From a virus (lineage: Duplodnaviria; Heunggongvirae; Uroviricota; Caudoviricetes), in the IMG/VR virus record IMGVR_UViG_2695420380_000013: a stretch of DNA of 10,347 nucleotides; one strand, given 5' to 3'. The position numbers and the translations under genes are program-made. Below are positions 118 through 10,347 of this stretch, one piece after another; positions within the stretch are counted from its first letter, which is position 1; every line of letters starts with the position of its first letter. The notes under the pieces were generated by a model. It saw nothing but the letters and a program-made list of their open reading frames with translations, was not told where the DNA came from and made no database searches.

Positions 118-1200
118 TCATTTTCTCTGGCTGATCTTTACCGGATAACCATCCCGAAGATCAATTAAGTGCTCCGGTTCAGAAGCAAACCATGCATAAG
201 ATCCCCACGCCAATTCTGGTATTGCCTTTTTAAAAGGCAGAGCACTTCTGTCCATAAATGCCGTAAGGAATGCAAGATTTTTCTCGCTGAACCCAGCGTC
301 AATAGCCAAATGAGTGAGAGTAACTTTTCGTTCCCTGTTTATAGGCCCATCTGTCGCAACTACTTCAGTGAAAACTACAAGCATGTCCGAACCCGTTCGG
401 TCCTCTCCCAAATCAATCAAAATAATATCTGGAAGTGCTTTTGAGGCATCAATATTCAGCCCCAATGCTTTTGCCAATACATCATCCTGAGCAACAACTT
501 TATTCCCGGATTCAGACAACCAGAGCACAGTTGGATTCTTAAGAAAATTAGGAGCAAAAACTTCGATGACGGCCTTAGCTATTGTACTTGACGGGCCCGG
601 AGCTAAAGTTCTCTTCTCTCCATTTGGGAAAGTGACGACTACGGCATCAGCAGCAATCACTGCCCCTGATTTCAATAAACGCAACCTAGCAAGAGCGGCT
701 TTGTTCAAATGATTTTCTTGCCAGGAACTTATTGCACTCAGCAGCGAATCTCCTTCAAGCCCGGCATCAAAGAGTGCTGCAAAAGAGCGATTCAAACTGT
801 AACGAGGACGAGAGGATGTGGTGGGTATACCTTTACGCTCAACAATTGCATTGCAAGGTATTAGGCCATTTTTTATAGTTTCATCACGTATTGGCTCACG
901 CGTATTTTCCGCATACCATGCATCAGCAGGCCTTATCTTTTGTTTAGAGAAAGTCATCTTTACCCAGCTTTCTCTGGACGCATCATCAGTAAGAGCAGCC
1001 TGCGAATCTCCCATACTTACAACCTGGCTGGGCCTTATCCATCGCCCCAGCCCCTCAACCGCACCAGCATAAAACATGACAAAAATTGTTTTTGCAGCTA
1101 TTTCCCGAATTAAATATCCACGATTCTCAGTCCCTTCAGGGAAAATTAATTGTAATCTTTCCCGGATAACATTCAATGGGGGAACAACAGGCAGATTCAT
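118..1200 (-). CDS. Candidate Type II restriction endonuclease (360 aa), partner of the upstream methyltransferase; family not established (possibly BsuBI/PstI-like)
   Basis: Long minus-strand ORF whose ATG (1200-1198) overlaps the methyltransferase stop (1199-1197) as ATGA, indicating translational coupling in an M-then-R operon. No ATPase or methyltransferase motifs. AT-rich like the methyltransferase gene. The endonuclease call rests on context; the family guess is from memory of the N-terminal region and is unverified. Confidence 0.55.
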   Translation of the reverse strand: MNLPVVPPLNVIRERLQLIFPEGTENRGYLIREIAAKTIFVMFYAGAVEGLGRWIRPSQVVSMGDSQAALTDDASRESWVKMTFSKQKIRPADAWYAENTREPIRDETIKNGLIPCNAIVERKGIPTTSSRPRYSLNRSFAALFDAGLEGDSLLSAISSWQENHLNKAALARLRLLKSGAVIAADAVVVTFPNGEKRTLAPGPSSTIAKAVIEVFAPNFLKNPTVLWLSESGNKVVAQDDVLAKALGLNIDASKALPDIILIDLGEDRTGSDMLVVFTEVVATDGPINRERKVTLTHLAIDAGFSEKNLAFLTAFMDRSALPFKKAIPELAWGSYAWFASEPEHLIDLRDGYPVKISQRK

Positions 1201-3029
1201 GCAATCATCACTCCATAGAAACCAGCGATAGTTCTCTCAATAATCCGTCTGTGGACGCCAGCATCAATTAACGATTGAATCTCCATCACCTGCTCCAGAG
1301 AAGGCAACGGGATTGAATTCAATTCATAGGCCGAAACAGCAACACTTCCGCTTATACACCTGAACGCCCGATCGACAACATGCGAATTAAGTAGCATATC
1401 AATAACATCAGGGCGAACCGCAGAGAACAATCCGTTTGAATATACAATATTAATATGGTTTTCAACTACTACGCCACCAGTTTCATCTATAAATCCCTGA
1501 GGTAAAATTGCCGCTAAAATCCTTCTGTCCTGTTCCTTCGATGTTGTCCGCTGAACAAGCACACATTCAGATTTTGTCACAAGGAAACCCTGTTGTGGGG
1601 TTATATCGATATAGGGAACATGATTTTTTCTGTCTGCACTAAAACGAAAACCAGCTGAAGTTATTGATTCCGCCCAGACTAATGGGTAGCTATTTTTTCC
1701 TTTCGTCGTACGCAACTGCGACTTAAATCGATTCCAGACTAACTGACCTGTAGAGACTGAGTATCCCAGATCAGCTAAACGCGTAGACATCTGTTTTAAT
1801 ACATTAAGAAAACAGGCATCATCTTTAACGCGTGGCAAAAGCCACGTTGCTCCACCTTTTTCTATATCAACATTACCTATTTTCTCAATTTTTGCTTTGT
1901 TCAACCCCTTAGGGACAAGTGAGGATACCTGGGCCCGAACTTTATGTTCTCCCGCCTTGAATGCTGTCAACATTGTTTCCTGGAGAACATCGTCAAAGAC
2001 CCCATCCCTGTCAGTGACGAAATCAAGGGCATACGGAGTAGTTTTTTCGGTCAAAAGGGTTCGCAGCGCGGTGAAATACTGCCCACCAAGAAAAGAAGTT
2101 GGCGTAAGAAATGCAATAACTCCTGTTTTCTCTTTAACCATGCGAACAGCTAAGTCGGTGAACAATCCATATAGATTTGCATGACCAAATAACGAACGAG
2201 AATATTTTTCTCTCGTTTTAATATCGAGAGTGACACGTCCGTAAGGCGGATTCCCTACCACAAGATCATAACCAGAAAATTTATCTTGCTGAAGCGCATC
2301 AGCAACAATAATTGTATCTTCAGGCAATCTACGTTTTACCTTTACACATAGTGGCATTAGTACAGATTCGAGCAATACCAAACTCATCCAAGCCGCAAAT
2401 GGATCGATTTCTATCCCCTTTAAACGACGACTGATTCTCCTCAACATCCATTCAGGGGAAGACCCCTTGTCTTTTTTTAACATTCGAATGGCTACTGGTG
2501 CCAAAAATGCACCGCCACCACACGCAGGATCAATAACCGATGCATGAGAAAAATCAACACCAGACTTTTCAGCCAGGTCCAAGAGACGCGCTACCAAAGG
2601 TGGGGGGGTATAGTAAGCCCCCAATTCCGAACGGTAAGCGGATGGCAGCATTACCGTATAAATTGACCCAATCAGATATCCAGCGTCCTCCGCCGGAAAT
2701 TGAGCAATAAGCTCACCTGTTCGTTCAGCGAGCTCGCGTGCATCACATGGAATGTCTTCTATGTAAACAGTGTGCGGTACTGCCCTCATTTTAATGCTGC
2801 TTTTTTGCTTTTTTGCAAGGGTATCCCAATATGCAGCTACGATGCTGAAGCAGTATGAGCGGGCATGCATCAACCTTGACTGCCCGGTTTTGTAATTGCC
2901 CGCATAACCTTTGGCCATGGCTTTACAAGTTTGATATCTTTCCAGATTAGAAAACTCATTATCTGTAAAAAAATCAAAATGTTGCACATTCATAATGTAA
3001 AATCCTAATGTATCAAACATGCGGGCCAT
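1197..3029 (-). CDS. N6-adenine-specific DNA methyltransferase, gamma-like motif order (610 aa from the first ATG; an alternative start at 2993 has a better-placed AGGA)
   Basis: Translation contains GAYYTPPPLVARLL (motif X-like), VIDPACGGGAFL (AdoMet-binding motif I) and VVGNPPYGR (catalytic NPPY motif IV), followed by a ~350-aa C-terminal region consistent with a target-recognition domain. Single uninterrupted ORF. Confidence 0.9.
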   Translation of the reverse strand: MARMFDTLGFYIMNVQHFDFFTDNEFSNLERYQTCKAMAKGYAGNYKTGQSRLMHARSYCFSIVAAYWDTLAKKQKSSIKMRAVPHTVYIEDIPCDARELAERTGELIAQFPAEDAGYLIGSIYTVMLPSAYRSELGAYYTPPPLVARLLDLAEKSGVDFSHASVIDPACGGGAFLAPVAIRMLKKDKGSSPEWMLRRISRRLKGIEIDPFAAWMSLVLLESVLMPLCVKVKRRLPEDTIIVADALQQDKFSGYDLVVGNPPYGRVTLDIKTREKYSRSLFGHANLYGLFTDLAVRMVKEKTGVIAFLTPTSFLGGQYFTALRTLLTEKTTPYALDFVTDRDGVFDDVLQETMLTAFKAGEHKVRAQVSSLVPKGLNKAKIEKIGNVDIEKGGATWLLPRVKDDACFLNVLKQMSTRLADLGYSVSTGQLVWNRFKSQLRTTKGKNSYPLVWAESITSAGFRFSADRKNHVPYIDITPQQGFLVTKSECVLVQRTTSKEQDRRILAAILPQGFIDETGGVVVENHINIVYSNGLFSAVRPDVIDMLLNSHVVDRAFRCISGSVAVSAYELNSIPLPSLEQVMEIQSLIDAGVHRRIIERTIAGFYGVMIA

Positions 3030-3089
3030 AACATCTCATGGTGGCGCATAGCAAACTGGCCCGAAGAATATCACGCACCAAGTCGATCT

Positions 3090-3103
3090 CATAACCCGTT
3101 ATG
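3090..3103. promoter_or_regulatory. Perfect 6-2-6 palindrome CATAAC-CC-GTTATG about 60 bp upstream of the methyltransferase start; candidate operator
   Basis: Read directly from the sequence (cataacccgttatg). Position between the upstream small ORF and the methyltransferase start codon. No recognisable sigma70 -35/-10 pair could be placed confidently nearby. Confidence 0.25.
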
Positions 3104-3243
3104 ACAATAAATCTTTGTAGCTGAACTCACTTGGTGATTTGTCAATCATTCCTGGCCTCCAGTTCGTCCTGAATCTCTTTATCGAGTTCACCGTATTTGT
3201 TAGTCCTCATCACTCACGACTTGACTTCCAGAAATAACCTTGA

Positions 3244-3600
3244 TTATTCGGGGCTATATTTTGTCACCCTGCGTATCCGCGCTTTCGCATTACGCTCAAT
3301 CTGGATTAGCTTTTCTATATTTTTTCGCCTTTCCCGCTCCTCCTGGCGCAAGAGCCTTACATCATCTGCCAGTCTGGTTTCTCTTTTCGCCACAGAGAGC
3401 ATCCAGTCAAATGGCTCCACAACTGCACCGCAAATTTTACAGCGGACCTGACGCTCTTTTTCGTCAACCCGGACAGAGGCGTGATGGCAATATGGTCTTT
3501 CCGATGGCTCATAAAGAAAATTAACCTGATTACGAGGGTTATCCTCTTTTACCGGAAATAAAACAATATTGCTTAACTCATCTTCTGGTTTTATTTCCAT
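3244..3600 (-). CDS. Hypothetical small protein (119 aa) with a zinc-ribbon-like CHH...CxxC motif and a basic coiled-coil-like C-terminus
   Basis: ATG at 3600 is preceded by a strong Shine-Dalgarno (AAGGAGAGGAGC then ATG). Translation MEIKPEDEL...YCHHASVRVDEKERQVRCKICGAVV...RLLRQEERERRKNIEKLIQIERNAKARIRR. Same strand as, and directly upstream of, the methyltransferase. The ORF track extends it to 3657, but that start lacks an RBS. Confidence 0.6.
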   Translation of the reverse strand: MEIKPEDELSNIVLFPVKEDNPRNQVNFLYEPSERPYCHHASVRVDEKERQVRCKICGAVVEPFDWMLSVAKRETRLADDVRLLRQEERERRKNIEKLIQIERNAKARIRRVTKYSPE

Positions 3601-3657
3601 GCTCCTCTCCTTTGATGCGAATGCCAGCGGTAATTGAAGCCTGATAGCTAATTTCAC

Positions 3658-3780
3658 TCACAGTACCGCCTCCTGAAAATCACCCTGATAGAAAGCCGGT
3701 ACACGCTGCATAACTTCACTCTTCCGGCACTCGCGACAGATTATGTTCTGATGTCTGTCGTAGCGGCGTATTTCTCCGTC
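3658..3780 (-). pseudogene. 3' remnant of a paralog of the hypothetical gene at 4200-4771, cut off at the N-run/IS1 junction
   Basis: Encodes DGEIRRYDRHQNIICRECRKSEVMQRVPAFYQGDFQEAVL, which matches the C-terminus of the 4200-4538 ORF (DGEIRRYDRRQNIICSECRKSEAMQRVLAFYQGNFQKVLL). The DNA at 3658-3780 aligns with 4200-4322 at roughly 85-90 percent identity. The upstream part is replaced by NNNNNNNN plus IS1 interior sequence. Confidence 0.6.
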
Positions 3781-3788
3781 NNNNNNNN
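3781..3788. other. Run of 8 N (unresolved bases or scaffold join) exactly at the junction between the phage-gene remnant and IS1 interior
   Basis: Literal n characters in the sequence. Confidence 0.95.
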
Positions 3789-4127
3789 GCCAGCGCTGGC
3801 GCGATTTAGCCCCGACATAGCCCCACTGTTCGTCCATTTCCGCGCAGACGATGACGTCACTGCCCGGCTGTATGCGCGAGGTTACCGACTGCGGCCTGAG
3901 TTTTTTAAGTGACGTAAAATCGTGTTGAGGCCAACGCCCATAATGCGTGCAGTTGCCATGTTTTACGGCAGTGAGAGCAGAGATAGCGCTGATGTCCGGC
4001 AGTGCTTTTGCCGTTACGCACCACCCCGTCAGTAGCTGAACAGGAGGGACAGCTGATAGAAACAGAAGCCACTGGAGCACCTCAAAAACACCATCATACA
4101 CTAAATCAGTAAGTTGGCAGCATCACC
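3789..4127 (-). mobile_element. IS1 fragment: IRL end plus insA region and 5' part of insB; truncated on the insB/IRR side, with an apparent internal deletion inside insA
   Basis: Ends with the IS1 IRL reverse complement at 4097-4127. The minus-strand translation contains the InsA N-terminus ([41 protein letters not shown]) and InsB residues ([52 protein letters not shown]). Relative to IS1 as I recall it, about 85 bp between ...GGCAACTGCA and CGCATTATGGGCG... are missing, which would frameshift insA. Only about 339 of 768 bp are present. Confidence 0.85.
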
Positions 4128-4199
4128 ACAGTGCTGAACTTAATTATTCAGATTTTGGATTATGCTTTCTCTTCACGAAGTTCCGATTGTTAATTTGGC

Positions 4200-4771
4200 T
4201 CACAACAGCACCTTCTGAAAATTACCCTGATAGAAAGCCAGTACACGCTGCATAGCTTCGCTCTTCCGGCACTCGCTACAGATTATGTTTTGACGCCTGT
4301 CGTAGCGGCGTATTTCTCCGTCTGGTAATGACCAGATAAGGTCAGGATCAACCACAGATGGTTTCTTCAGATTTGCCCTTGAGAGTTTTTTGCGGGCGTT
4401 TTGCCAGTCCTTACGCGCCTGTTCAGACGGGAATAACCCGTAACCAGAGTTGTATACATCGCCACTGGCAACCAGCTCTCTGGCGAGAACACTCATCAGA
4501 TATCTTGTCGCACCTGTCTTGGCTTCCAGTTGCCGCAACGTCTCGCGACCGCTCAGACGTACAAGTTCAACAACCTGCCCTTNNNNNNNNNNNNNNAGTT
4601 GTATACATCCCCACTGGCAACCAGCTCTCTGGCGAGAACGCTTATTAAATATCTTGTCGCCCCGGTTTTAGCTTCCAGTTGTCGTAACGTCTCGCGCCCA
4701 CTCTGGCGTACGAGTTCAACAACCTGCCCCTTAATTTTTTCCCGCTCTTCCTGTGTAAATACTTTTGCCAT
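4200..4771 (-). CDS. Hypothetical phage protein (gene X), reading frame interrupted by a diverged tandem duplication and a 14-N run
   Basis: ATG at 4771 (MAKVFTQEEREKIKGQVVELVRQSGRETLRQLEAKTGATRYLISVLARELVASGDVYN...), then the N-run, then a second copy of the same segment (RQLEAKTGATRYLMSVLARELVASGDVYNSGYGLFPSEQARKDW...NFQKVLL) ending at 4200. If the duplication were collapsed, a continuous protein of about 148 aa would result. No family recognised. Confidence 0.45.
4448..4732. repeat. Tandem duplication of a ~135-bp segment (4448-4582 and 4597-4732), copies roughly 88 percent identical, separated by 14 N
   Basis: Both units begin agttgtatacatc(g/c)ccactggcaaccagctctctggcgagaac and end ...gttcaacaacctgccc(c)tt. 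About 16 scattered mismatches, so not a simple read-level duplication. Confidence 0.75.
4583..4596. other. Run of 14 N at the junction of the two tandem repeat units
   Basis: Literal n characters. Confidence 0.95.
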
Positions 4772-4786
4772 AAGCGCCCCCGGCAA

Positions 4787-5533: not shown

Positions 5534-5824
5534 TTACTTCACAACTCCCGGAAAGCTGACATTTGAACGCCAGCTATCCCAGTTAAACGTCACCCACCGA
5601 CAACCGTTCATGGTCATGCGGTCCATAATCCTCTCACCAAGAAGCGTGCTCATTGCGGCATGATTCAGGTTTGTTAACATCCCGACACTGCACAGTGATG
5701 CTGTCCGGCGATCAATTATCTGGTGCAATACCACCTGCTCGTTTTTCGTCTCCCGCTGAATGCCTATTTCATCCAGGACCAGCAAATCAACCCCGCAAAG
5801 CTCCTGTAAAAATTTTTCACCGGA
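5534..5824 (-). CDS. DnaC-like replicative helicase loader, C-terminal part only (5' portion lies in the 593-N run)
   Basis: Translation ...LLVLDEIGIQRETKNEQVVLHQIIDRRTASLCSVGMLTNLNHAAMSTLLGERIMDRMTMNGCRWVTFNWDSWRSNVSF closely parallels the E. coli DnaC C-terminus (Walker B LLVIDEIG, NQIVDRR, GMLTNSN, LGERVMDRM, FNWDSYR). Stop at 5534-5536. Confidence 0.85.
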   Translation of the reverse strand, partial: SGEKFLQELCGVDLLVLDEIGIQRETKNEQVVLHQIIDRRTASLCSVGMLTNLNHAAMSTLLGERIMDRMTMNGCRWVTFNWDSWRSNVSFPGVVK

Positions 5825-6417
5825 NNNNNNNNNNNNNNNNNNNNNNNNNNNNNNNNNNNNNNNNNNNNNNNNNNNNNNNNNNNNNNNNNNNNNNNNNNNN
5901 NNNNNNNNNNNNNNNNNNNNNNNNNNNNNNNNNNNNNNNNNNNNNNNNNNNNNNNNNNNNNNNNNNNNNNNNNNNNNNNNNNNNNNNNNNNNNNNNNNNN
6001 NNNNNNNNNNNNNNNNNNNNNNNNNNNNNNNNNNNNNNNNNNNNNNNNNNNNNNNNNNNNNNNNNNNNNNNNNNNNNNNNNNNNNNNNNNNNNNNNNNNN
6101 NNNNNNNNNNNNNNNNNNNNNNNNNNNNNNNNNNNNNNNNNNNNNNNNNNNNNNNNNNNNNNNNNNNNNNNNNNNNNNNNNNNNNNNNNNNNNNNNNNNN
6201 NNNNNNNNNNNNNNNNNNNNNNNNNNNNNNNNNNNNNNNNNNNNNNNNNNNNNNNNNNNNNNNNNNNNNNNNNNNNNNNNNNNNNNNNNNNNNNNNNNNN
6301 NNNNNNNNNNNNNNNNNNNNNNNNNNNNNNNNNNNNNNNNNNNNNNNNNNNNNNNNNNNNNNNNNNNNNNNNNNNNNNNNNNNNNNNNNNNNNNNNNNNN
6401 NNNNNNNNNNNNNNNNN
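5825..6417. other. Run of 593 N (gap or masked segment) covering the 5' part of the DnaC-like gene
   Basis: Literal n characters. ORF-track entries crossing it are artefacts of translating N as X. Confidence 0.95.
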
Positions 6418-6560
6418 AGAAATATGATTCACACAACGCTGGTTGTTCGTGCCGCTTACCGGGAGCAACCAGGGGTTTTCAAAATTCCGGTCCGGCCCAA
6501 AAAACGTCGTCGCTCGCTGAACAAATTCCGTTCCCGCTTTCCCGGTCGCCGCCAGGTATC

Positions 6561-6910
6561 NNNNNNNNNNNNNNNNNNNNNNNNNNNNNNNNNNNNNNNN
6601 NNNNNNNNNNNNNNNNNNNNNNNNNNNNNNNNNNNNNNNNNNNNNNNNNNNNNNNNNNNNNNNNNNNNNNNNNNNNNNNNNNNNNNNNNNNNNNNNNNNN
6701 NNNNNNNNNNNNNNNNNNNNNNNNNNNNNNNNNNNNNNNNNNNNNNNNNNNNNNNNNNNNNNNNNNNNNNNNNNNNNNNNNNNNNNNNNNNNNNNNNNNN
6801 NNNNNNNNNNNNNNNNNNNNNNNNNNNNNNNNNNNNNNNNNNNNNNNNNNNNNNNNNNNNNNNNNNNNNNNNNNNNNNNNNNNNNNNNNNNNNNNNNNNN
6901 NNNNNNNNNN
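6561..6910. other. Run of 350 N (gap or masked segment) covering the 3' part of the O-like replication gene
   Basis: Literal n characters. The 143-bp island at 6418-6560 between the two runs is open in two minus-strand frames, so the true reading frame and gene boundary cannot be decided. Confidence 0.95.
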
Positions 6911-7510
6911 ATCGGCTTTCAGCGCATACGCTGAATCGGCTTCCGGTGTCGAGCCTGCTGGCTGACCAGGATTGACGGTCTGAACATCCCCTGCCTGGTT
7001 CGTGGCGTTTTTTACGCCATGGACCATAGTGTTTTGATCTTCTTTATCTGTATCTTTATCTGTATCTGTCGTGACTCGTCGTGACATGTGCGTGACATTT
7101 CGTGACGCGCCGTGACAATCGCCATTTTGTTCCCGCTTTCTTTCCCTCTCTCGCTGCGCCCTCTTGCGCTCTGCAGGAGATTTTGCGGTTTGCGAAATAT
7201 TGCCGTTGTCCTCTTTAAGCACCTGGCGTTTTTCCCATCCAGTGATTAAATCACCATCAAGTACCCGCCCCTGCATCGTCTGCAAAATTGAATCAATTAC
7301 CTCTTCTGTCACGTCGAGCGCACTTGCCAAATCTTCTGTCGTGACATCAATGTGACCTCGCGTGACATTTCGTGACGCGCTCACCAGGAGGTGGATATAC
7401 ACTGCCATCACTGTTGCAATTGGCTGCCCTGACACCCTGGCAATTGTTCGCCACTTAGGGTCATTTGGCATGTCATGCCATAATCTGAGCCAGGCGTTAG
7501 CCATACTCAC
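6911..7510 (-). CDS. Lambdoid replication initiation protein (O-like replisome organizer), N-terminal part; 3' end unresolved in the N-run
   Basis: Minus-strand ORF starting GTG 7510 or ATG 7504 (MANAWLRLWHDMPNDPKWRTIARVSGQPIATVMAVYIHLLVSASRNVTRGHIDVTTEDLASALDVTEEVIDSILQ...). Sits directly upstream of the DnaC-like gene and downstream of the cro-like/YdaT-like genes. Contains iteron-like DNA repeats that encode a repetitive acidic linker (VTTDTDKDTDKED), as in lambda O. Confidence 0.65.
7041..7116. repeat. Iteron-like repeat cluster inside the O-like gene: 12-bp tandem tctttatctgta x2, then five CGTGAC hexamers; candidate phage replication origin
   Basis: Direct reading: tctttatctgtatctttatctgta at 7041-7064, and cgtgac at 7070, 7080, 7091, 7101 and 7111. 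The 21-mer gcgtgacatttcgtgacgcgc at 7090-7110 is repeated exactly at 7360-7380. AT-rich tract immediately adjacent (7031-7068). Confidence 0.5.
7340..7380. repeat. Second CGTGAC/TGTGAC hexamer cluster, including an exact 21-bp copy of 7090-7110
   Basis: cgtgac at 7340, tgtgac at 7351, cgtgac at 7361 and 7371. The 21-mer gcgtgacatttcgtgacgcgc at 7360-7380 is identical to 7090-7110. Lies in the 5' part of the O-like gene (the encoded ASRNVT peptide is repeated too). Confidence 0.45.
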
Positions 7511-7575
7511 CTCTTCTGATACCGAATCTTTTTACTCACGAGTTGCCGGGAGCGATTCGATATGGCTATTGTCAG

Positions 7576-8001
7576 TCAATGTACTGCCACAGCATTTCCT
7601 GCCGGGCCACCACGGTTCATCTGATTGAAACCGGCGATTGCCACTGCGACAAAATCATCAGCGTCTCTCACCAGTCGTTCATGCGTCTCCACCAGTTCCC
7701 GAAAATAAGCTGAACTGTGGCTGCGCATTCGAGCCACCAGCGGAGGTGGCATTGCCCTTTCGATCGCAGGTAACAACGCCTGAATTTTTTCAACAGCGTC
7801 AGGGGTGTCTTTATCCAGCCAACGGAAAATCTTTTGGGTGTTGAGATAAAGCGTGTTGTGCTTGCTGTCGTTATGCAGAACCGGAAACGTCATTCCCAGT
7901 TCGAAATAAACCCTGGTTATTTCAGCTGCCGGAACTTTTTCACCGTCCGGATGCGCCCAGGCTTTCATCGCCATGCGGATGTGTTCATGCTTGATTTTCA
8001 T
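7576..8001 (-). CDS. YdaT-like prophage protein (141 aa; occupies the cII position of the early-right operon)
   Basis: ATG at 8001 overlaps the stop of the upstream cro-like gene (ATGA). Translation MKIKHEHIRMAMKAWAHPDGEKVPAAEITRVYFELGMTFPV... Gene order cro-like, this gene, O-like, DnaC-like mirrors ydaS-ydaT-ydaU-ydaV of Rac-type prophages. Family name is from memory. Confidence 0.55.
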   Translation of the reverse strand: MKIKHEHIRMAMKAWAHPDGEKVPAAEITRVYFELGMTFPVLHNDSKHNTLYLNTQKIFRWLDKDTPDAVEKIQALLPAIERAMPPPLVARMRSHSSAYFRELVETHERLVRDADDFVAVAIAGFNQMNRGGPAGNAVAVH

Positions 8002-8261
8002 GAATCAACCCCCGCCGATGGTTGTGTGTTAGCCTGAAACTCAGCAGGCAAGCCGTCAGTTGGGTTGGGGTAGGTTTTACTGTCAATCTCATGTGGGGTC
8101 ACCACCCATCCCGTTGCTTCACACCAACGTAATATTTTTTCTCCTGTAAGTTTTGCACGCCCCGTTATAACGTGGCTGACCATCCCTTGGGATGCGCCAA
8201 CAATCTCAGCAAATGAACTCTGGGTTATATGAAAATGATGCAAATATTCTCCAAGATTCAT
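7998..8261 (-). CDS. Cro-like HTH DNA-binding protein (YdaS-like), 87 aa from the ATG at 8261 (ORF track extends to a TTG at 8288)
   Basis: ATG at 8261 preceded by AGGG about 6 nt upstream. Translation MNLGEYLHHFHITQSSFAEIVGASQGMVSHVITGRAKLTGEKILRWCEATG... contains a helix-turn-helix signature (QSSFAEIVGASQGMVSHVITGR). Transcribed divergently from the cI-like repressor gene. Confidence 0.75.
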   Translation of the reverse strand: MNLGEYLHHFHITQSSFAEIVGASQGMVSHVITGRAKLTGEKILRWCEATGWVVTPHEIDSKTYPNPTDGLPAEFQANTQPSAGVDS

Positions 8262-8297
8262 AATCCGCCCTATGTGATGTGTTACCAATGCATAATT

Positions 8298-8337
8298 AAT
8301 AGCACTGTTATTTTTAAAAGTAAATAGTGATGCTATT
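8298..8337. promoter_or_regulatory. Operator pair in the cro-like/cI-like divergent intergenic region: two 15-bp palindromes AATAG-N5-(C/T)TATT
   Basis: aatagcactgttatt at 8298-8312 and aatagtgatgctatt at 8323-8337. The same palindrome family recurs twice at 9434-9474. Located between divergent start codons at 8261 and 8373. Confidence 0.55.
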
Positions 8338-8372
8338 TCAAAGTGATTAGCAATCTTATTAGAATTGGATGT

Positions 8373-8873
8373 ATGAAAAGAAAATCATTGTCAGACACCG
8401 ACCTCAACGCCGCCAGAAGACTGAAAGAAATCTGGATGGCAAAGAAATCTCAGTTGGGATTGACTCAGGAACGTGCGGCGGAAATTATGGGGTTTTCAAC
8501 ACAAGGGGCGGTAAGTCACTACCTAAATGGTCAAACCCCACTAAACCTTGAGGCTGTTCTAAAGTTTGCTGGCTTACTGAAAGTTCCCCCTGAGTCAATC
8601 AGGCCAGACATGGTAGATTTGCTGCAAATTGCAAGGATGTATTGTCGAGAACCACAGCAAGATAACATAGTCGCATTACCAGCAGACACAGAACAAACAG
8701 AGGATGAACTACCGTTTGCCGTAGAGCCGATGGAACGAGATTTAATCCATACGTTCAGAGCTTTTCCGAAAGAAGATCAAGAACACATGCTTCAGGAGAT
8801 GAAAGATAAAAAAGAATCAATGGATCGTACGGTTGCGCGGTGGTTAGCTGCACAAAAAGGCCGTCGCGCCTAA
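8373..8873 (+). CDS. cI-like HTH (XRE-family) repressor without a peptidase S24 domain (RacR/PaaR-like), 166 aa from the ATG at 8373
   Basis: Translation MKRKSLSDTDLNAARRLKEIWMAKKSQLGLTQERAAEIMGFSTQGAVSHYLNGQTPLNLEAVLKFAGLL... has a classic HTH (LGLTQERAAEIMGFSTQGAVSHYLNG) and an acidic C-terminal tail. No Ser/Lys autocleavage motifs seen. Divergent from the cro-like gene and directly upstream of the antitoxin/toxin pair. Confidence 0.8.
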   Translation: MKRKSLSDTDLNAARRLKEIWMAKKSQLGLTQERAAEIMGFSTQGAVSHYLNGQTPLNLEAVLKFAGLLKVPPESIRPDMVDLLQIARMYCREPQQDNIVALPADTEQTEDELPFAVEPMERDLIHTFRAFPKEDQEHMLQEMKDKKESMDRTVARWLAAQKGRRA

Positions 8874-8892
8874 ATCAGAGGAGATATGTAAA

Positions 8893-9087
8893 ATGAGTAC
8901 AGTCCTTTCCCCAATGGTTTCAGAATTTGAGACAGTTGAGCAAGAAAATAGTTACAACGAATGGCTGCGGGCCAAAGTAGCAGCAAGCCTCGCGGATCCC
9001 CGCCCGGCGATTCCGCATGATGAGGTAATGGCGGAAATGGAACAAATTATTGCCCAAATTGCTGCTGCAACTCACAGAGGTGAATAA
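8893..9087 (+). CDS. Small antitoxin (64 aa) partnered with the ParE-family toxin; ParE-associated (PaaA-like) antitoxin candidate
   Basis: ATG at 8893 with a GAGGAG Shine-Dalgarno upstream. Its stop TAA (9085-9087) overlaps the toxin ATG (9087-9089) as TAATG. Size and position are typical of type II antitoxins. No clear ribbon-helix-helix signature, so the family is inferred from context. Confidence 0.65.
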   Translation: MSTVLSPMVSEFETVEQENSYNEWLRAKVAASLADPRPAIPHDEVMAEMEQIIAQIAAATHRGE

Positions 9088-9377
9088 TGTTACCCGTTTT
9101 ATGGCTACCATCTGCTCGTGATGATTTGCGCCAGATCGTAGCCTACATAGCTAAAGAAAATCCCGCGGCAGCACGCAGAATGAAAATTCGAATTGAAACA
9201 TCCGTTTTGCCGCTCACAGAGCATCCTTACCTGTATCCTCCAAGCGAGCGAGTTCTTGGTCTTCGTGAAATTGTAACTCATCCTAACTACATCATCCTTT
9301 ACCGAGTAACAGCATCAAGCATAGAAGTAGTAAATATTGTGCATTCTCGAAGACAGTATCCAGGCAAAAACAGTTAA
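9087..9377 (+). CDS. parE: ParE/RelE-superfamily toxin (96 aa)
   Basis: Translation MLPVLWLPSARDDLRQIVAYIAKENPAAARRMKIRIETSV...YIILYRVTASSIEVVNIVHSRRQ matches the conserved ParE pattern (DL..I..YIA..NP.AA.R....I......YRV.....EI.RVLH.R). Translationally coupled to the upstream antitoxin. Confidence 0.85.
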   Translation: MLPVLWLPSARDDLRQIVAYIAKENPAAARRMKIRIETSVLPLTEHPYLYPPSERVLGLREIVTHPNYIILYRVTASSIEVVNIVHSRRQYPGKNS

Positions 9378-9393
9378 TTATTCCCGCCGACAG

Positions 9394-9418
9394 AACCACC
9401 TTAGGGTGGTTTTTTCTT
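9394..9418 (+). terminator. Rho-independent terminator downstream of the toxin gene
   Basis: Stem accacc (9395-9400), loop ttag, stem ggtggt (9405-9410), followed by a T-run (tttttcttg) starting 17 nt after the parE stop. Confidence 0.65.
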
Positions 9419-9433
9419 GCCCCAACAAAAAAC

Positions 9434-9474
9434 AATAGCGATGCTATTTACATCAAAAAAATAATGATGCTATT
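9434..9474. promoter_or_regulatory. Second operator pair (two 15-bp palindromes of the same AATAG-N5-CTATT family) overlapping a candidate plus-strand promoter
   Basis: aatagcgatgctatt at 9434-9448 and aataatgatgctatt at 9460-9474. A possible -35 tttaca (9448-9453) and -10 tattgt (9471-9476) with a 17-nt spacer would drive the downstream small genes. Confidence 0.5.
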
Positions 9475-9655
9475 GTTTCAGGCGTCAACCCACCCCGCCC
9501 CACAGAATGCAGGGCAATACTTCGAGTTACCAGACAGTGGTCAGGGGTTAAGTAGCCAGCCCGAGGCGTAAGAACATGACGGCAGGGTTCAATCTTTAAC
9601 TATGCAGCAGGTTTTTTGTTCCGCCACCCCGGCGTTAAGGGGAAATGAGGTCAGC

Positions 9656-9808
9656 ATGGATACTATCGATCTTGGCAACAACGAATCTCTGGTGTGCGGC
9701 GTGTTCCCTAACCAGGATGGAACGTTTACCGCCATGACGTATACCAAAAGCAAAACGTTTAAAACCGAATCTGGCGCGCGTTGCTGGTTAGCCAGAAACA
9801 CTGACTGA
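9656..9808 (+). CDS. Small prophage protein (50 aa), YdaF-like (DUF1391-like)
   Basis: ATG at 9656 preceded by GAGG 5 nt upstream. Translation MDTIDLGNNESLVCGVFPNQDGTFTAMTYTKSKTFKTESGARCWLARNTD. Family recalled from Rac-type prophages, unverified. The ORF track's longer start at 9602 lacks an RBS. Confidence 0.55.
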   Translation: MDTIDLGNNESLVCGVFPNQDGTFTAMTYTKSKTFKTESGARCWLARNTD

Positions 9809-9819
9809 TGAGGCTGACG

Positions 9820-10185
9820 ATGGAATTTAAAGATTTACCGTCTGATGTACAGAAAACAGCAGCTCATACATTGCATTCTGTGCTGCGAGAAATCGGGAAA
9901 GATATTGCAAGCGAGCCAGCAAAAGATCTGGCCCGGAAAATCAAGACCGCTTTCGTTGAGCTTTATAATGTTGGCACTGACTCTGAAACTGTCGAGACCA
10001 AGACCGTAAGTTCACCAATATTCTCACTTGAGCCAAGCGTATTATCAGGTGAAATATGCACCGAGATTTCCAGCGAACTGCTTCCGGTAATACGAGAAGC
10101 AATTCGCCGTCGCGGTTTGGATGGAAGTTATGATCATGACGTTCTGCAAGTTCTCAGGACAATGGTGACTTCACTGGGGATTTGA
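9820..10185 (+). CDS. Hypothetical prophage protein (121 aa from the ATG at 9820)
   Basis: ATG at 9820 preceded by GAGG (9810-9813) with a 6-nt spacer. Translation MEFKDLPSDVQKTAAHTLHSVLREIGKDIASEPAKDLARKIKTAFVELYNVG... No recognisable motif. Confidence 0.5.
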   Translation: MEFKDLPSDVQKTAAHTLHSVLREIGKDIASEPAKDLARKIKTAFVELYNVGTDSETVETKTVSSPIFSLEPSVLSGEICTEISSELLPVIREAIRRRGLDGSYDHDVLQVLRTMVTSLGI

Positions 10186-10315
10186 TCCCTGCGTCCTCTA
10201 AGCTTTTGATATAGCGGTCCTCCAAGAAGCGGTAAATTTTGTCGAAATCATCTTTTCCCTCTGGTTTATTCAGAGGATTACAGGACCCGTAAGTAGCGGC
10301 ATACATTTCAACCGT
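10154..10315 (-). pseudogene. Possible 3' remnant of a gene truncated by the right-hand IS1
   Basis: Minus-strand frame is open from the IS1 junction (10315) to a TGA at 10156-10154 (...TVEMYAATYGSCNPLNKPEGKDDFDKIYRFLEDRYIKSLEDAGIKSPVKSPLS). No start codon with an RBS inside the window. Overlaps the 3' end of the 9820-10185 gene by about 30 nt. Confidence 0.25.
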
Positions 10316-10317
10316 TT

Positions 10318-10347
10318 GGTAATGACTCCAACTTATTGATAGTGTTT
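10318..10347 (-). mobile_element. IS1 terminus (IRR end; body of the element lies right of the window)
   Basis: nt 10318-10347 ggtaatgactccaacttattgatagtgttt is the IS1 right inverted repeat (GGTAATGACTCCAACTTATTGAT...). Same orientation as the IS1 terminus at 1-31 and the internal fragment. Confidence 0.85.

What the first reader, a model, noticed from the sequence alone, without database searches (positions are those of the whole stretch)
8373..9377. Three-gene module: cI-like repressor, small antitoxin and ParE toxin embedded in the prophage immunity region
The HTH repressor gene that is divergent from cro (so positionally the prophage immunity repressor) is followed after 19 nt by a 64-aa antitoxin and a translationally coupled ParE-family toxin, then a terminator. 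Three-component regulator/antitoxin/ParE systems are known from E. coli O157 prophages (paaR-paaA-parE type). Here the regulator position coincides with the immunity repressor, implying that prophage maintenance and toxin control may share one repressor and one operator set.
Basis: partly seen in the sequence, partly recalled or inferred. Interest (0 to 1): 0.6.

Follow-up and report, generated by a model that had tools for sequence, protein, structure and literature searches.

The report
Prophage repressor–PaaA–ParE operon, known type
The three genes are real and form a repressor–antitoxin–ParE toxin operon inside a lambda-like prophage switch, but this arrangement was already worked out experimentally in E. 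coli O157:H7, so this is a new immunity variant of a known system.

Summary
There is a 166-aa HTH repressor (8373-8873), a 19-nt gap, a 64-aa PaaA-family antitoxin (8893-9087), a ParE toxin overlapping it by TAATG (9087-9377) and a terminator hairpin (9392-9418). Paired 15-bp operators, AATAGC-N3-GCTATT, flank the operon at 8298-8337 and 9434-9474.

Jurenas et al. 2021 (PMC8630535) showed exactly this for paaR2-paaA2-parE2 in prophage CP-933P. There PaaR2 acts as CI, YdaS as Cro and YdaT as CII, with OR and OL operators and a leaderless repressor mRNA.

This window holds a heteroimmune allele, probably from Shigella sonnei. Its TA pair is closest to the CP-933M (paaR1-type) copy. The repressor shares only its C-terminal 44-64 residues with PaaR1/PaaR2. 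Its N-terminal domain is a true lambda cI N-terminal-domain homologue with its own operators.

In 80 prophage loci, repressor N-domain, Cro-like gene and operator motif co-vary perfectly, while the TA genes stay constant.

Binding, toxicity and neutralisation remain untested for this allele. Interest is low to moderate.

The parts
7576..8001 (-). ydaT-like gene, the CII analogue (141 aa)
   Evidence: Pfam YdaT_toxin, E 5e-9. PHROG 163 'CII-like transcriptional activator', E 3e-40. 87% identical to CP-933P YdaT.
7991..8008 (.). YdaT box TTGATTTTCATGAATCAA at the ydaS end / ydaT start, the likely PRE control site
   Evidence: Exact match to the published YdaT site 5'-TTGATTN6AATCAA-3'. It is the only match in the window (0.06 expected) and sits at the same position as OM in CP-933P (PMC9986795).
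7998..8261 (-). Cro-like HTH gene (ydaS position, 87 aa)
   Evidence: Pfam HTH_3 and PHROG 35, E 8e-17. Annotated with this start in the near-identical E. coli locus L001. Unrelated to CP-933P YdaS.
8296..8324 (-). PR-like promoter for the cro-like gene: TTTACT (8324->8319), 17-nt spacer, TATTAA (8301->8296)
   Evidence: Read by eye. The automatic scan did not report it. Its layout is parallel to the PL-like promoter, with operators over both hexamers.
8298..8312 (.). Operator OR1, AATAGCACTGTTATT, over the PR -10
   Evidence: Conserved in L001, L002 and 45 IMG/VR loci.
8323..8337 (.). Operator OR2, AATAGTGATGCTATT; centre is 43 bp upstream of the repressor ATG
   Evidence: It overlaps the PR -35 and abuts the PRM -35.
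8346..8360 (.). Possible weak OR3, ATTAGCAATCTTATT (11 of 15), inside the PRM spacer
   Evidence: 4 mismatches. The assignment is an inference.
8337..8365 (+). PRM-like promoter: TTCAAA, 17-nt spacer, TAGAAT. The expected start is at 8372-8373, i.e. at the ATG, giving a leaderless mRNA
   Evidence: Promoter scan. No Shine-Dalgarno sequence precedes 8373. paaR2 and lambda cI are leaderless (PMC8630535).
8373..8873 (+). Immunity repressor (166 aa): lambda-cI-type N-terminal domain, disordered linker, PaaR/DicA-type two-helix C-terminal domain
8893..9087 (+). PaaA-family antitoxin (64 aa), no DNA-binding domain
   Evidence: Pfam PF21217, E 3e-23. PDB PaaA2 3zbe, E 1.4e-23. NCBIfam NF050103.
9087..9377 (+). 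ParE-family toxin (96 aa), start overlaps the antitoxin stop (TAATG)
   Evidence: Pfam PF05016. PDB ParE2 5cw7_B, E 6.7e-37.
9392..9418 (+). Intrinsic terminator of the operon: 9-bp stem, UUAG loop, U-run
   Evidence: RNA fold -15.1 kcal/mol, z = -3.3. Inverted repeat I24.
9434..9448 (.). Operator OL2, AATAGCGATGCTATT (perfect consensus)
9460..9474 (.). Operator OL1, AATAATGATGCTATT, over the PL -10
9447..9476 (+). PL-like promoter (TTTACA, 18-nt spacer, TG-TATTGT) reading into the ydfA (DUF1391) early operon
   Evidence: Promoter scan. Downstream DUF1391 gene. Analogous to PL933P in PMC8630535.

Best explanation
This is the immunity region of a lambdoid, Qin/CP-933-type prophage. A paaA-parE toxin-antitoxin pair is carried as cargo in the repressor operon, in the slot where lambda carries rexAB.

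Proposed mechanism:
1. The 166-aa repressor binds the 15-bp AATAGC-N3-GCTATT operators through a lambda-cI-like N-terminal domain.
2. It self-associates through a short helical PaaR/DicA-type C-terminal domain.
3. At OR it shuts off the leftward PR, which drives the Cro-like and YdaT/CII-like genes.
4. At OL it shuts off the rightward PL, which drives ydfA and the downstream kil/dicB-type genes.
5. It sets its own level at a leaderless PRM. That same transcript carries paaA and translationally coupled parE through to the terminator at 9392-9418.
6. YdaT, binding its box at 7991-8008, provides a second, PRE-like route into the operon.
7. PaaA neutralises ParE by direct binding. Loss of the region would leave the stable toxin unopposed (addiction).

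Shown here: the gene families, the anatomy, the operator motif with its statistics, and its co-variation with the repressor domain.

Inferred from the experimentally studied homologue (CP-933P): DNA binding, promoter activity, leaderless start, toxicity, neutralisation and addiction.
For: Gene families.

Regulatory anatomy:
- PRM-like and PL-like promoters.
- Terminator.
- Operators enriched 7 versus 0.28 expected, and confined to the two intergenic sites that flank the operon.
- OR2 and the putative OR3 centres lie 43 and 20 bp upstream of the repressor ATG. From my own knowledge, not tested here, lambda has about -42 and -19 relative to PRM.
- An exact YdaT box at the ydaS/ydaT junction, matching PMC9986795.

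Mosaic structure:
- Against CP-933M and CP-933P, ydaT, the repressor 3' end, paaA, parE and the post-PL leader are homologous.
- Window 8073-8745 (versus CP-933M) or 8013-8807 (versus CP-933P) is unrelated. In CP-933P the OL region is also unrelated.
- Each variant carries its own repeat motif at both OR and OL.

Distribution in 80 IMG/VR prophage loci:
- 45 have the cI-type N-domain, the window-type Cro-like gene and the AATAGC motif at both OR and OL.
- 35 have a PaaR1-type N-domain and another Cro-like gene, and lack the motif at OL and as an OR pair (L065 has a single OR-position hit).
- All 80 keep the repressor C-terminal domain, paaA, parE and divergent ydaS/ydaT.

Other support:
- Purifying selection on all three genes.
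- AF2 model: a 5-helix N-domain, a disordered linker (93-111) and a 2-helix C-domain. The N-domain superposes on lambda cI NTD with target TM 0.83-0.93 and 34-40% identity.
- Experimental precedent for the whole circuit: PMC8630535.
Against: - No experiment exists for this allele.
- The PR promoter was found only by eye, not by the scan.
- OR3 is degenerate (11 of 15), and only two OL sites are seen.
- Promoter-like matches in the region are no more frequent than in shuffles (4 found versus 4.2 expected), so the promoter calls rest on position and on homology of layout.
- The prophage is probably defective (IS1 fragment, duplicated gene pieces), so 'immunity' may now mean only silencing of residual early genes.
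- In CP-933P no ParE2 activity was detected in either transcriptional state, so the biological role of the toxin is still open.
Confidence: 0.85

Rival explanations
1. The locus is a self-contained three-component TA system. The HTH protein would be only the DNA-binding third of a 'split antitoxin', regulating its own operon with no role in prophage immunity.
For: PaaA has no DNA-binding domain.
Against: - A second pair of the same operators lies over a rightward promoter outside the operon, upstream of the ydfA early genes.
- The divergent partner genes are Cro-like and CII-like.
- The same repressor scaffold occupies this position without any TA in Qin (dicA), and with different or no cargo in the loci of the 244-255-aa tandem-HTH forms, which share both its N- and C-terminal domains.
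- PMC8630535 rejected this reading experimentally for PaaR2.
Confidence: 0.05
2. The regulation is the same, but the main role of paaA-parE is anti-phage defence or superinfection exclusion expressed from the lysogen's repressor transcript, a functional counterpart of lambda rexAB, rather than addiction or stabilisation.
For: - The pair occupies the rexAB position between the repressor gene and OL.
- The slot is a variable cargo site. It holds HipA_2 + DUF3037 genes in L087-L089, nothing in L090-L092 and nothing in Qin.
- The same prophage carries a type II restriction-modification system.
Against: - PaaA and ParE have no PADLOC match.
- Published data show plasmid stabilisation by post-segregational killing for the homologue, and no defence assay is reported.
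- The two roles are not mutually exclusive.
Confidence: 0.15
3. The module is an inert remnant of a decayed prophage. The genes are intact by chance and no longer function.
For: The neighbourhood is damaged: an IS1 InsA fragment at 3905-4072 and duplicated DUF977 pieces.
Against: - dN/dS is 0.05-0.16 for all three genes at saturated dS.
- The ParE protein is identical in nine IMG/VR loci, eight of them with identical PaaA, and all nine with conserved operators.
- Start signals, coupling and terminator are intact.
Confidence: 0.05

Closest known systems
paaR2-paaA2-parE2 with ydaS-ydaT in cryptic prophage CP-933P of E. coli O157:H7 (Hallez 2010; Jurenas 2021, PMC8630535; YdaT structure, PMC9986795)
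   Same: - Same gene order and orientation, and the same position in a lambdoid immunity region.
- PaaA 75% identical over residues 1-56, ParE 67%, YdaT 87%.
- Repressor C-terminal 44 residues 52% identical.
- Same exact YdaT box.
- Operators at both OR and OL, a PL-like promoter and a likely leaderless repressor mRNA.
- A 160-nt stretch downstream of PL is 94% identical.
   Different: - The repressor N-terminal DNA-binding domain, the Cro-like protein and the operator sequences are unrelated: AATAGC-N3-GCTATT here, GTTTAGT-type repeats there.
- The repressor is 166 aa here and 123 aa there.
- The PaaA C-terminal helix and the ParE N-terminal helices are divergent.
paaR1-paaA1-parE1-type locus in CP-933M of E. 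coli O157:H7 (EDL933/ATCC 43894 locus L003)
   Same: - This is the closest TA pair: PaaA 77-78%, ParE 83-86%.
- It has the same type of PaaA C-terminus.
- The repressor C-terminal 64 residues are 56% identical, and YdaT is 81% identical.
   Different: - Different repressor HTH domain (133 aa protein), different Cro-like N-terminus, different operator repeats (AAAAACTGT / ACAGTTTTT).
- L003 is identified as paaR1 by elimination. It is the second of two places in O157 genomes, and the paper places the homologue in CP-933M.
Bacteriophage lambda cI-rexA-rexB with OR/OL, PRM, PR and PL
   Same: - The N-terminal domain is a true homologue: phmmer E 3e-9; Foldseek 34-40% identity, target TM 0.83-0.93.
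- It keeps the basic N-terminal arm and acidic residues at the positions of lambda E34 and D38. These are read from the alignment; their role in PRM activation is from my own knowledge.
- Operator spacing of 23-26 bp, OR2 about 43 bp upstream of the repressor start, a leaderless repressor mRNA, and cargo genes between the repressor and OL.
   Different: - No S24 peptidase / RecA-cleavable C-terminal domain, so no SOS induction by autocleavage is expected.
- Different recognition helix and operator sequence.
- OL-OR distance is about 1.1 kb.
- The cargo is a ParE TA pair, not RexAB.
dicA-dicC immunity region of cryptic prophage Qin (E. coli K-12)
   Same: - Same layout, and the same downstream ydfA-ydfB-ydfC...dicB operon. 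The ydfA region is 90% identical over 182 nt.
- The repressor C-terminal domain matches the DicA C-terminus: NCBIfam NF007257, E 7e-8; BLASTP 29% over 51 aa, E 2e-6.
   Different: - Qin has no TA genes between dicA and the ydfA promoter.
- The DNA-binding domains are unrelated.

Membership tests
paaR-paaA-parE three-gene locus of lambdoid prophage immunity regions | PaaA-family antitoxin without a DNA-binding domain | tested here: met
   Pfam PF21217, E 3e-23. PDB PaaA2, E 1.4e-23. 75% identity over residues 1-56.
paaR-paaA-parE three-gene locus of lambdoid prophage immunity regions | ParE-family toxin immediately downstream, in the same operon | tested here: met
   Pfam PF05016, E 1.8e-17. 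ParE2 5cw7_B, E 6.7e-37, 67% identity. TAATG overlap.
paaR-paaA-parE three-gene locus of lambdoid prophage immunity regions | Upstream co-oriented HTH regulator homologous to PaaR | tested here: inconclusive
   Only the C-terminal 44 residues (PaaR2, 52%, E 5e-15) or 64 residues (CP-933M protein, 56%, E 6e-23) are homologous. The N-terminal DNA-binding domain is not. This makes it a domain-swapped relative.
paaR-paaA-parE three-gene locus of lambdoid prophage immunity regions | Located divergent from ydaS/ydaT in an immunity region, with a YdaT box | tested here: met
   All 80 related IMG/VR loci have this layout.
paaR-paaA-parE three-gene locus of lambdoid prophage immunity regions | Repressor operators at both OR and OL, controlling PR, PRM and PL | tested here: inconclusive
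   Repeated motif at both sites, over predicted promoters, and co-varying with the repressor N-domain. Binding and repression cannot be tested with these tools.
paaR-paaA-parE three-gene locus of lambdoid prophage immunity regions | Toxin toxic; antitoxin neutralises it and is protease-labile; locus addictive | not testable with these tools
   Known for ParE2/PaaA2 only (PMC8630535).
Lambda cI-type repressor (HTH N-domain plus S24 autopeptidase C-domain) | Lambda-cI-like five-helix N-terminal DNA-binding domain | tested here: met
   phmmer E 3e-9 to 1lmb. Foldseek target TM 0.83-0.93, rmsd 1-3 A.
Lambda cI-type repressor (HTH N-domain plus S24 autopeptidase C-domain) | S24 peptidase C-terminal domain permitting RecA-stimulated autocleavage | tested here: not met
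   No Peptidase_S24 hit. The C-terminal 50 residues form two helices and match the DicA/PaaR C-terminus instead.
RacR repressor family (Rac prophage) | Sequence similarity to RacR | tested here: not met
   BLASTP finds no hit at E <= 10.
Canonical two-gene ParD-ParE system | Antitoxin carries its own DNA-binding domain and autoregulates | tested here: not met
   The antitoxin matches only the PaaA2 family. That family is described as lacking a DNA-binding domain.

The most novel reading that the evidence does not exclude
The block 'repressor C-terminal domain + paaA + parE' behaves as a fixed unit, around which at least three different DNA-binding domains, Cro-like genes and OR/OL operator sets have been exchanged.

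If the TA pair itself enforces this pattern by killing recombinants that lose it, this family would be a natural record of an addiction module shaping where heteroimmune recombination can occur. Jurenas et al. proposed this but did not test it comparatively.

A stronger version is that the conserved repressor C-domain is functionally coupled to PaaA/ParE.
Probability: 0.15. Interest if true: 0.5.

Novelty: new member of a known kind. Interest (0 to 1): 0.25.

Why it matters
It adds little that is new in principle. The three-gene system and its embedding in the prophage switch were published in 2010 and 2021.

Its value is comparative.
- PaaR2 was called a CI analogue 'despite lacking sequence similarity'. 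This allele puts a genuine lambda-cI N-terminal domain on the PaaR scaffold at the same position, with lambda-like operator geometry.
- The three heteroimmune variants, with perfectly co-varying operators, give a clean natural test set for the proposed operators.
- They also bear on the idea that the TA pair stabilises the immunity region against replacement.

Tried and rejected
- **PaaR2 in the PDB:** the sequence search found only lambda cI domains. I obtained the PaaR2 sequence from phage Evi, which carries the CP-933P immunity region.
- **Rfam scan of 7400-10347** at E <= 0.1: nothing.
- **Fold of the conserved post-PL leader 9483-9660:** no more stable than shuffles (z = +1.4).
- **PADLOC:** no defence-system match for the three proteins.
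- **Automatic terminator scan:** it missed the parE terminator and listed four weak sites inside genes, at the level of the shuffles. RNA folding recovered the real one.
- **Promoter-like site inside the repressor gene** (8460-8488): treated as chance, because the total number of sites equals the shuffle expectation.
- **GTG 8343 as the repressor start** (176 aa): rejected. It lies upstream of the PRM -10, and relatives are annotated from the ATG. One database entry does extend upstream as a partial protein (P0001).

Full report
**What is there**

The ORF list and sequence show three co-oriented genes on the plus strand:
- a 166-aa protein from ATG 8373 to 8873;
- after a 19-nt gap containing AGAGGAG, a 64-aa protein at 8893-9087;
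- overlapping its stop by one base (TAATG), a 96-aa protein at 9087-9377.

A 9-bp hairpin with a U-run follows at 9392-9418 (-15.1 kcal/mol, z = -3.3).

Family assignments:

| Protein | Pfam | Closest solved relative |
|---|---|---|
| 166 aa | HTH_3 | lambda cI N-terminal domain, E 3e-9 |
| 64 aa | PaaA2 (PF21217, E 3e-23) | PaaA2, E 1.4e-23 |
| 96 aa | ParE_toxin (E 1.8e-17) | ParE2, E 6.7e-37 |

On the other strand lie a Cro-like HTH gene (7998-8261) and a YdaT/CII-like gene (7576-8001). Downstream lies a DUF1391 ydfA-type gene.

**Regulatory anatomy**

One 15-bp motif, AATAGC-N3-GCTATT, occurs twice between the divergent genes (8298-8312, 8323-8337). It occurs twice again just after the terminator (9434-9448, 9460-9474). 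At up to 3 mismatches there are 7 strand-matches against 0.28 expected, and no shuffle reached 7. A degenerate fifth copy sits at 8346-8360.

The promoter scan places two promoters:
- a PRM-like promoter (TTCAAA-17-TAGAAT, 8337-8365) whose expected start falls on the repressor ATG, with no Shine-Dalgarno sequence, so the mRNA would be leaderless;
- a rightward PL-like promoter (TTTACA-18-TATTGT, 9447-9476) overlapped by the two downstream operators.

By eye, a PR-like promoter on the minus strand (TTTACT-17-TATTAA, 8324-8296) has the same operator-over-hexamer layout.

OR2 and the putative OR3 are centred 43 and 20 bp upstream of the repressor start. From my own knowledge, not tested here, this resembles lambda PRM geometry.

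An exact copy of the published YdaT site TTGATTN6AATCAA lies at 7991-8008. It is at the ydaS/ydaT junction, the same place as in CP-933P (PMC9986795).

**Literature**

Jurenas et al. 2021 (PMC8630535) studied paaR2-paaA2-parE2 in CP-933P. They reported that:
- the locus lies in the prophage immunity region;
- PaaR2 is a CI analogue with a leaderless mRNA;
- PaaR2 and YdaS (the Cro analogue) bind overlapping operators at OR;
- both repress PR, PRM and a PL with matching OL operators;
- YdaT activates a PRE-like promoter;
- the locus is bistable and addictive.

A paralogue lies in CP-933M. PaaA1 and PaaA2 do not cross-neutralise the other toxin (PMC4803016).

**How this allele relates to the known ones**

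I recovered both O157 loci: the CP-933M-type from EDL933/ATCC 43894 (L003) and the CP-933P-type from phage Evi (L004). The Evi repressor starts MQKKE, as the paper reports for PaaR2.

| Window protein | vs CP-933M copy | vs CP-933P copy |
|---|---|---|
| PaaA | 77-78% | 75% over residues 1-56 |
| ParE | 83-86% | 67% |
| YdaT | 81% | 87% |
| Repressor | C-terminal 64 residues only (56%) | C-terminal 44 residues only (52%) |
| Cro-like protein | 36% over 67 residues (30% in a global alignment) | no BLASTP hit |

DNA comparison gives sharp mosaic borders. Window 8073-8745 has no counterpart in CP-933M. Window 8013-8807 and the OL stretch have none in CP-933P. The flanks, including 9486-9645, are 76-94% identical. 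Each variant carries its own repeat at both OR and OL.

A scan of IMG/VR with ParE returned 80 prophage loci.
- 45 have the cI-type N-domain, the window-type Cro-like gene and the AATAGC motif at both OR and OL.
- 35 have a PaaR1-type N-domain and a different Cro-like gene, and lack the motif at OL and as an OR pair (L065 has one hit at the OR1 position).
- All 80 keep the repressor C-domain, paaA, parE and divergent ydaS/ydaT.

This co-variation is the strongest evidence obtainable here that these sites are the operators of this repressor/Cro pair.

**The repressor**

The homologue search finds the identical protein in Shigella sonnei, so the window is probably from S. sonnei. Only two of 5,426 complete E. 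coli genomes carry this TA allele at 99% identity or more, while 842 carry some paaA-parE relative.

The AF2 model (pLDDT 79.6) has three parts:
- a five-helix N-domain (residues 8-90);
- a disordered linker (93-111);
- two C-terminal helices (119-165).

Foldseek places the N-domain on lambda cI NTD, with target TM 0.83-0.93 and 34-40% identity. The C-terminus matches DicA (29% over 51 residues) and PaaR1/PaaR2.

There is no S24 peptidase domain, so RecA-driven autocleavage is not expected. The same was noted for PaaR2. RacR is unrelated.

**Function**

dN/dS of 0.05-0.16 for all three genes argues that they are maintained by selection. The pair sits where lambda carries rexAB.

The slot varies in relatives. 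It is empty in Qin. It holds HipA_2 + DUF3037 genes, or nothing, behind longer tandem-HTH repressors. paaA-parE is therefore best seen as cargo in the repressor transcript.

Addiction is the published role. A defence role is not excluded, although PADLOC has no match.

**Verdict**

This is a real, well-formed and correctly interpreted feature. It is a heteroimmune member of an already characterised system, and all functional statements for this allele remain inference.

Noticed in passing
P0013-P0023; loci L087-L092: Some relatives of the repressor are 240-255 aa. They carry the same cI-like N-domain, then a second complete HTH domain of the PaaR1 type, then the shared C-domain. The window's 166-aa form looks like this form minus the inner HTH (alignment A1). 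They also sit divergent from HTH + YdaT genes. The slot after them holds HipA_2 + DUF3037 genes (L087-L089) or no cargo (L090-L092).
   Followed up: partly
window 9486-9645: The roughly 160-nt stretch just downstream of the PL-like promoter is 94% identical to CP-933P, although the operators beside it are swapped. It has no Rfam match and no unusual fold. It could be a conserved leader, for example an antitermination site, or a small ORF.
   Followed up: partly
window 118-3029 (minus strand): A type II restriction-modification pair: a BsuBI/PstI-family endonuclease (118-1200) and an Eco57I/N6-type methyltransferase (1197-3029) with overlapping stop/start. It appears to be carried by the same prophage region.
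   Followed up: partly
window 3643-4786, also 1-31 and 4097-4127: An IS1 InsA fragment (3905-4072) lies among duplicated DUF977 gene pieces: 3643-3780 versus 4185-4322, and 4448-4580 versus 4597-4729, both about 88% identical. Bases 1-31 repeat exactly at 4097-4127. This suggests IS-mediated rearrangement of the prophage.
   Followed up: no
window 3781-3788, 4583-4596, 5825-6417, 6561-6910: Runs of N mask parts of the replication-gene region, so the O/P-like genes at 5534-7510 cannot be fully read.
   Followed up: no
L004 (Escherichia phage Evi LR597642.1) 3001-3276: Phage Evi carries the complete CP-933P immunity region, with a ParE2 100% identical to the crystallised protein, but the parE2 gene is not annotated in the record.
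   Followed up: no
L001 3745-4307 (E. coli RMDEC465 prophage): The near-identical E. coli prophage carries a second, separate ParD/ParE-type pair about 5 kb from the immunity region.
   Followed up: no
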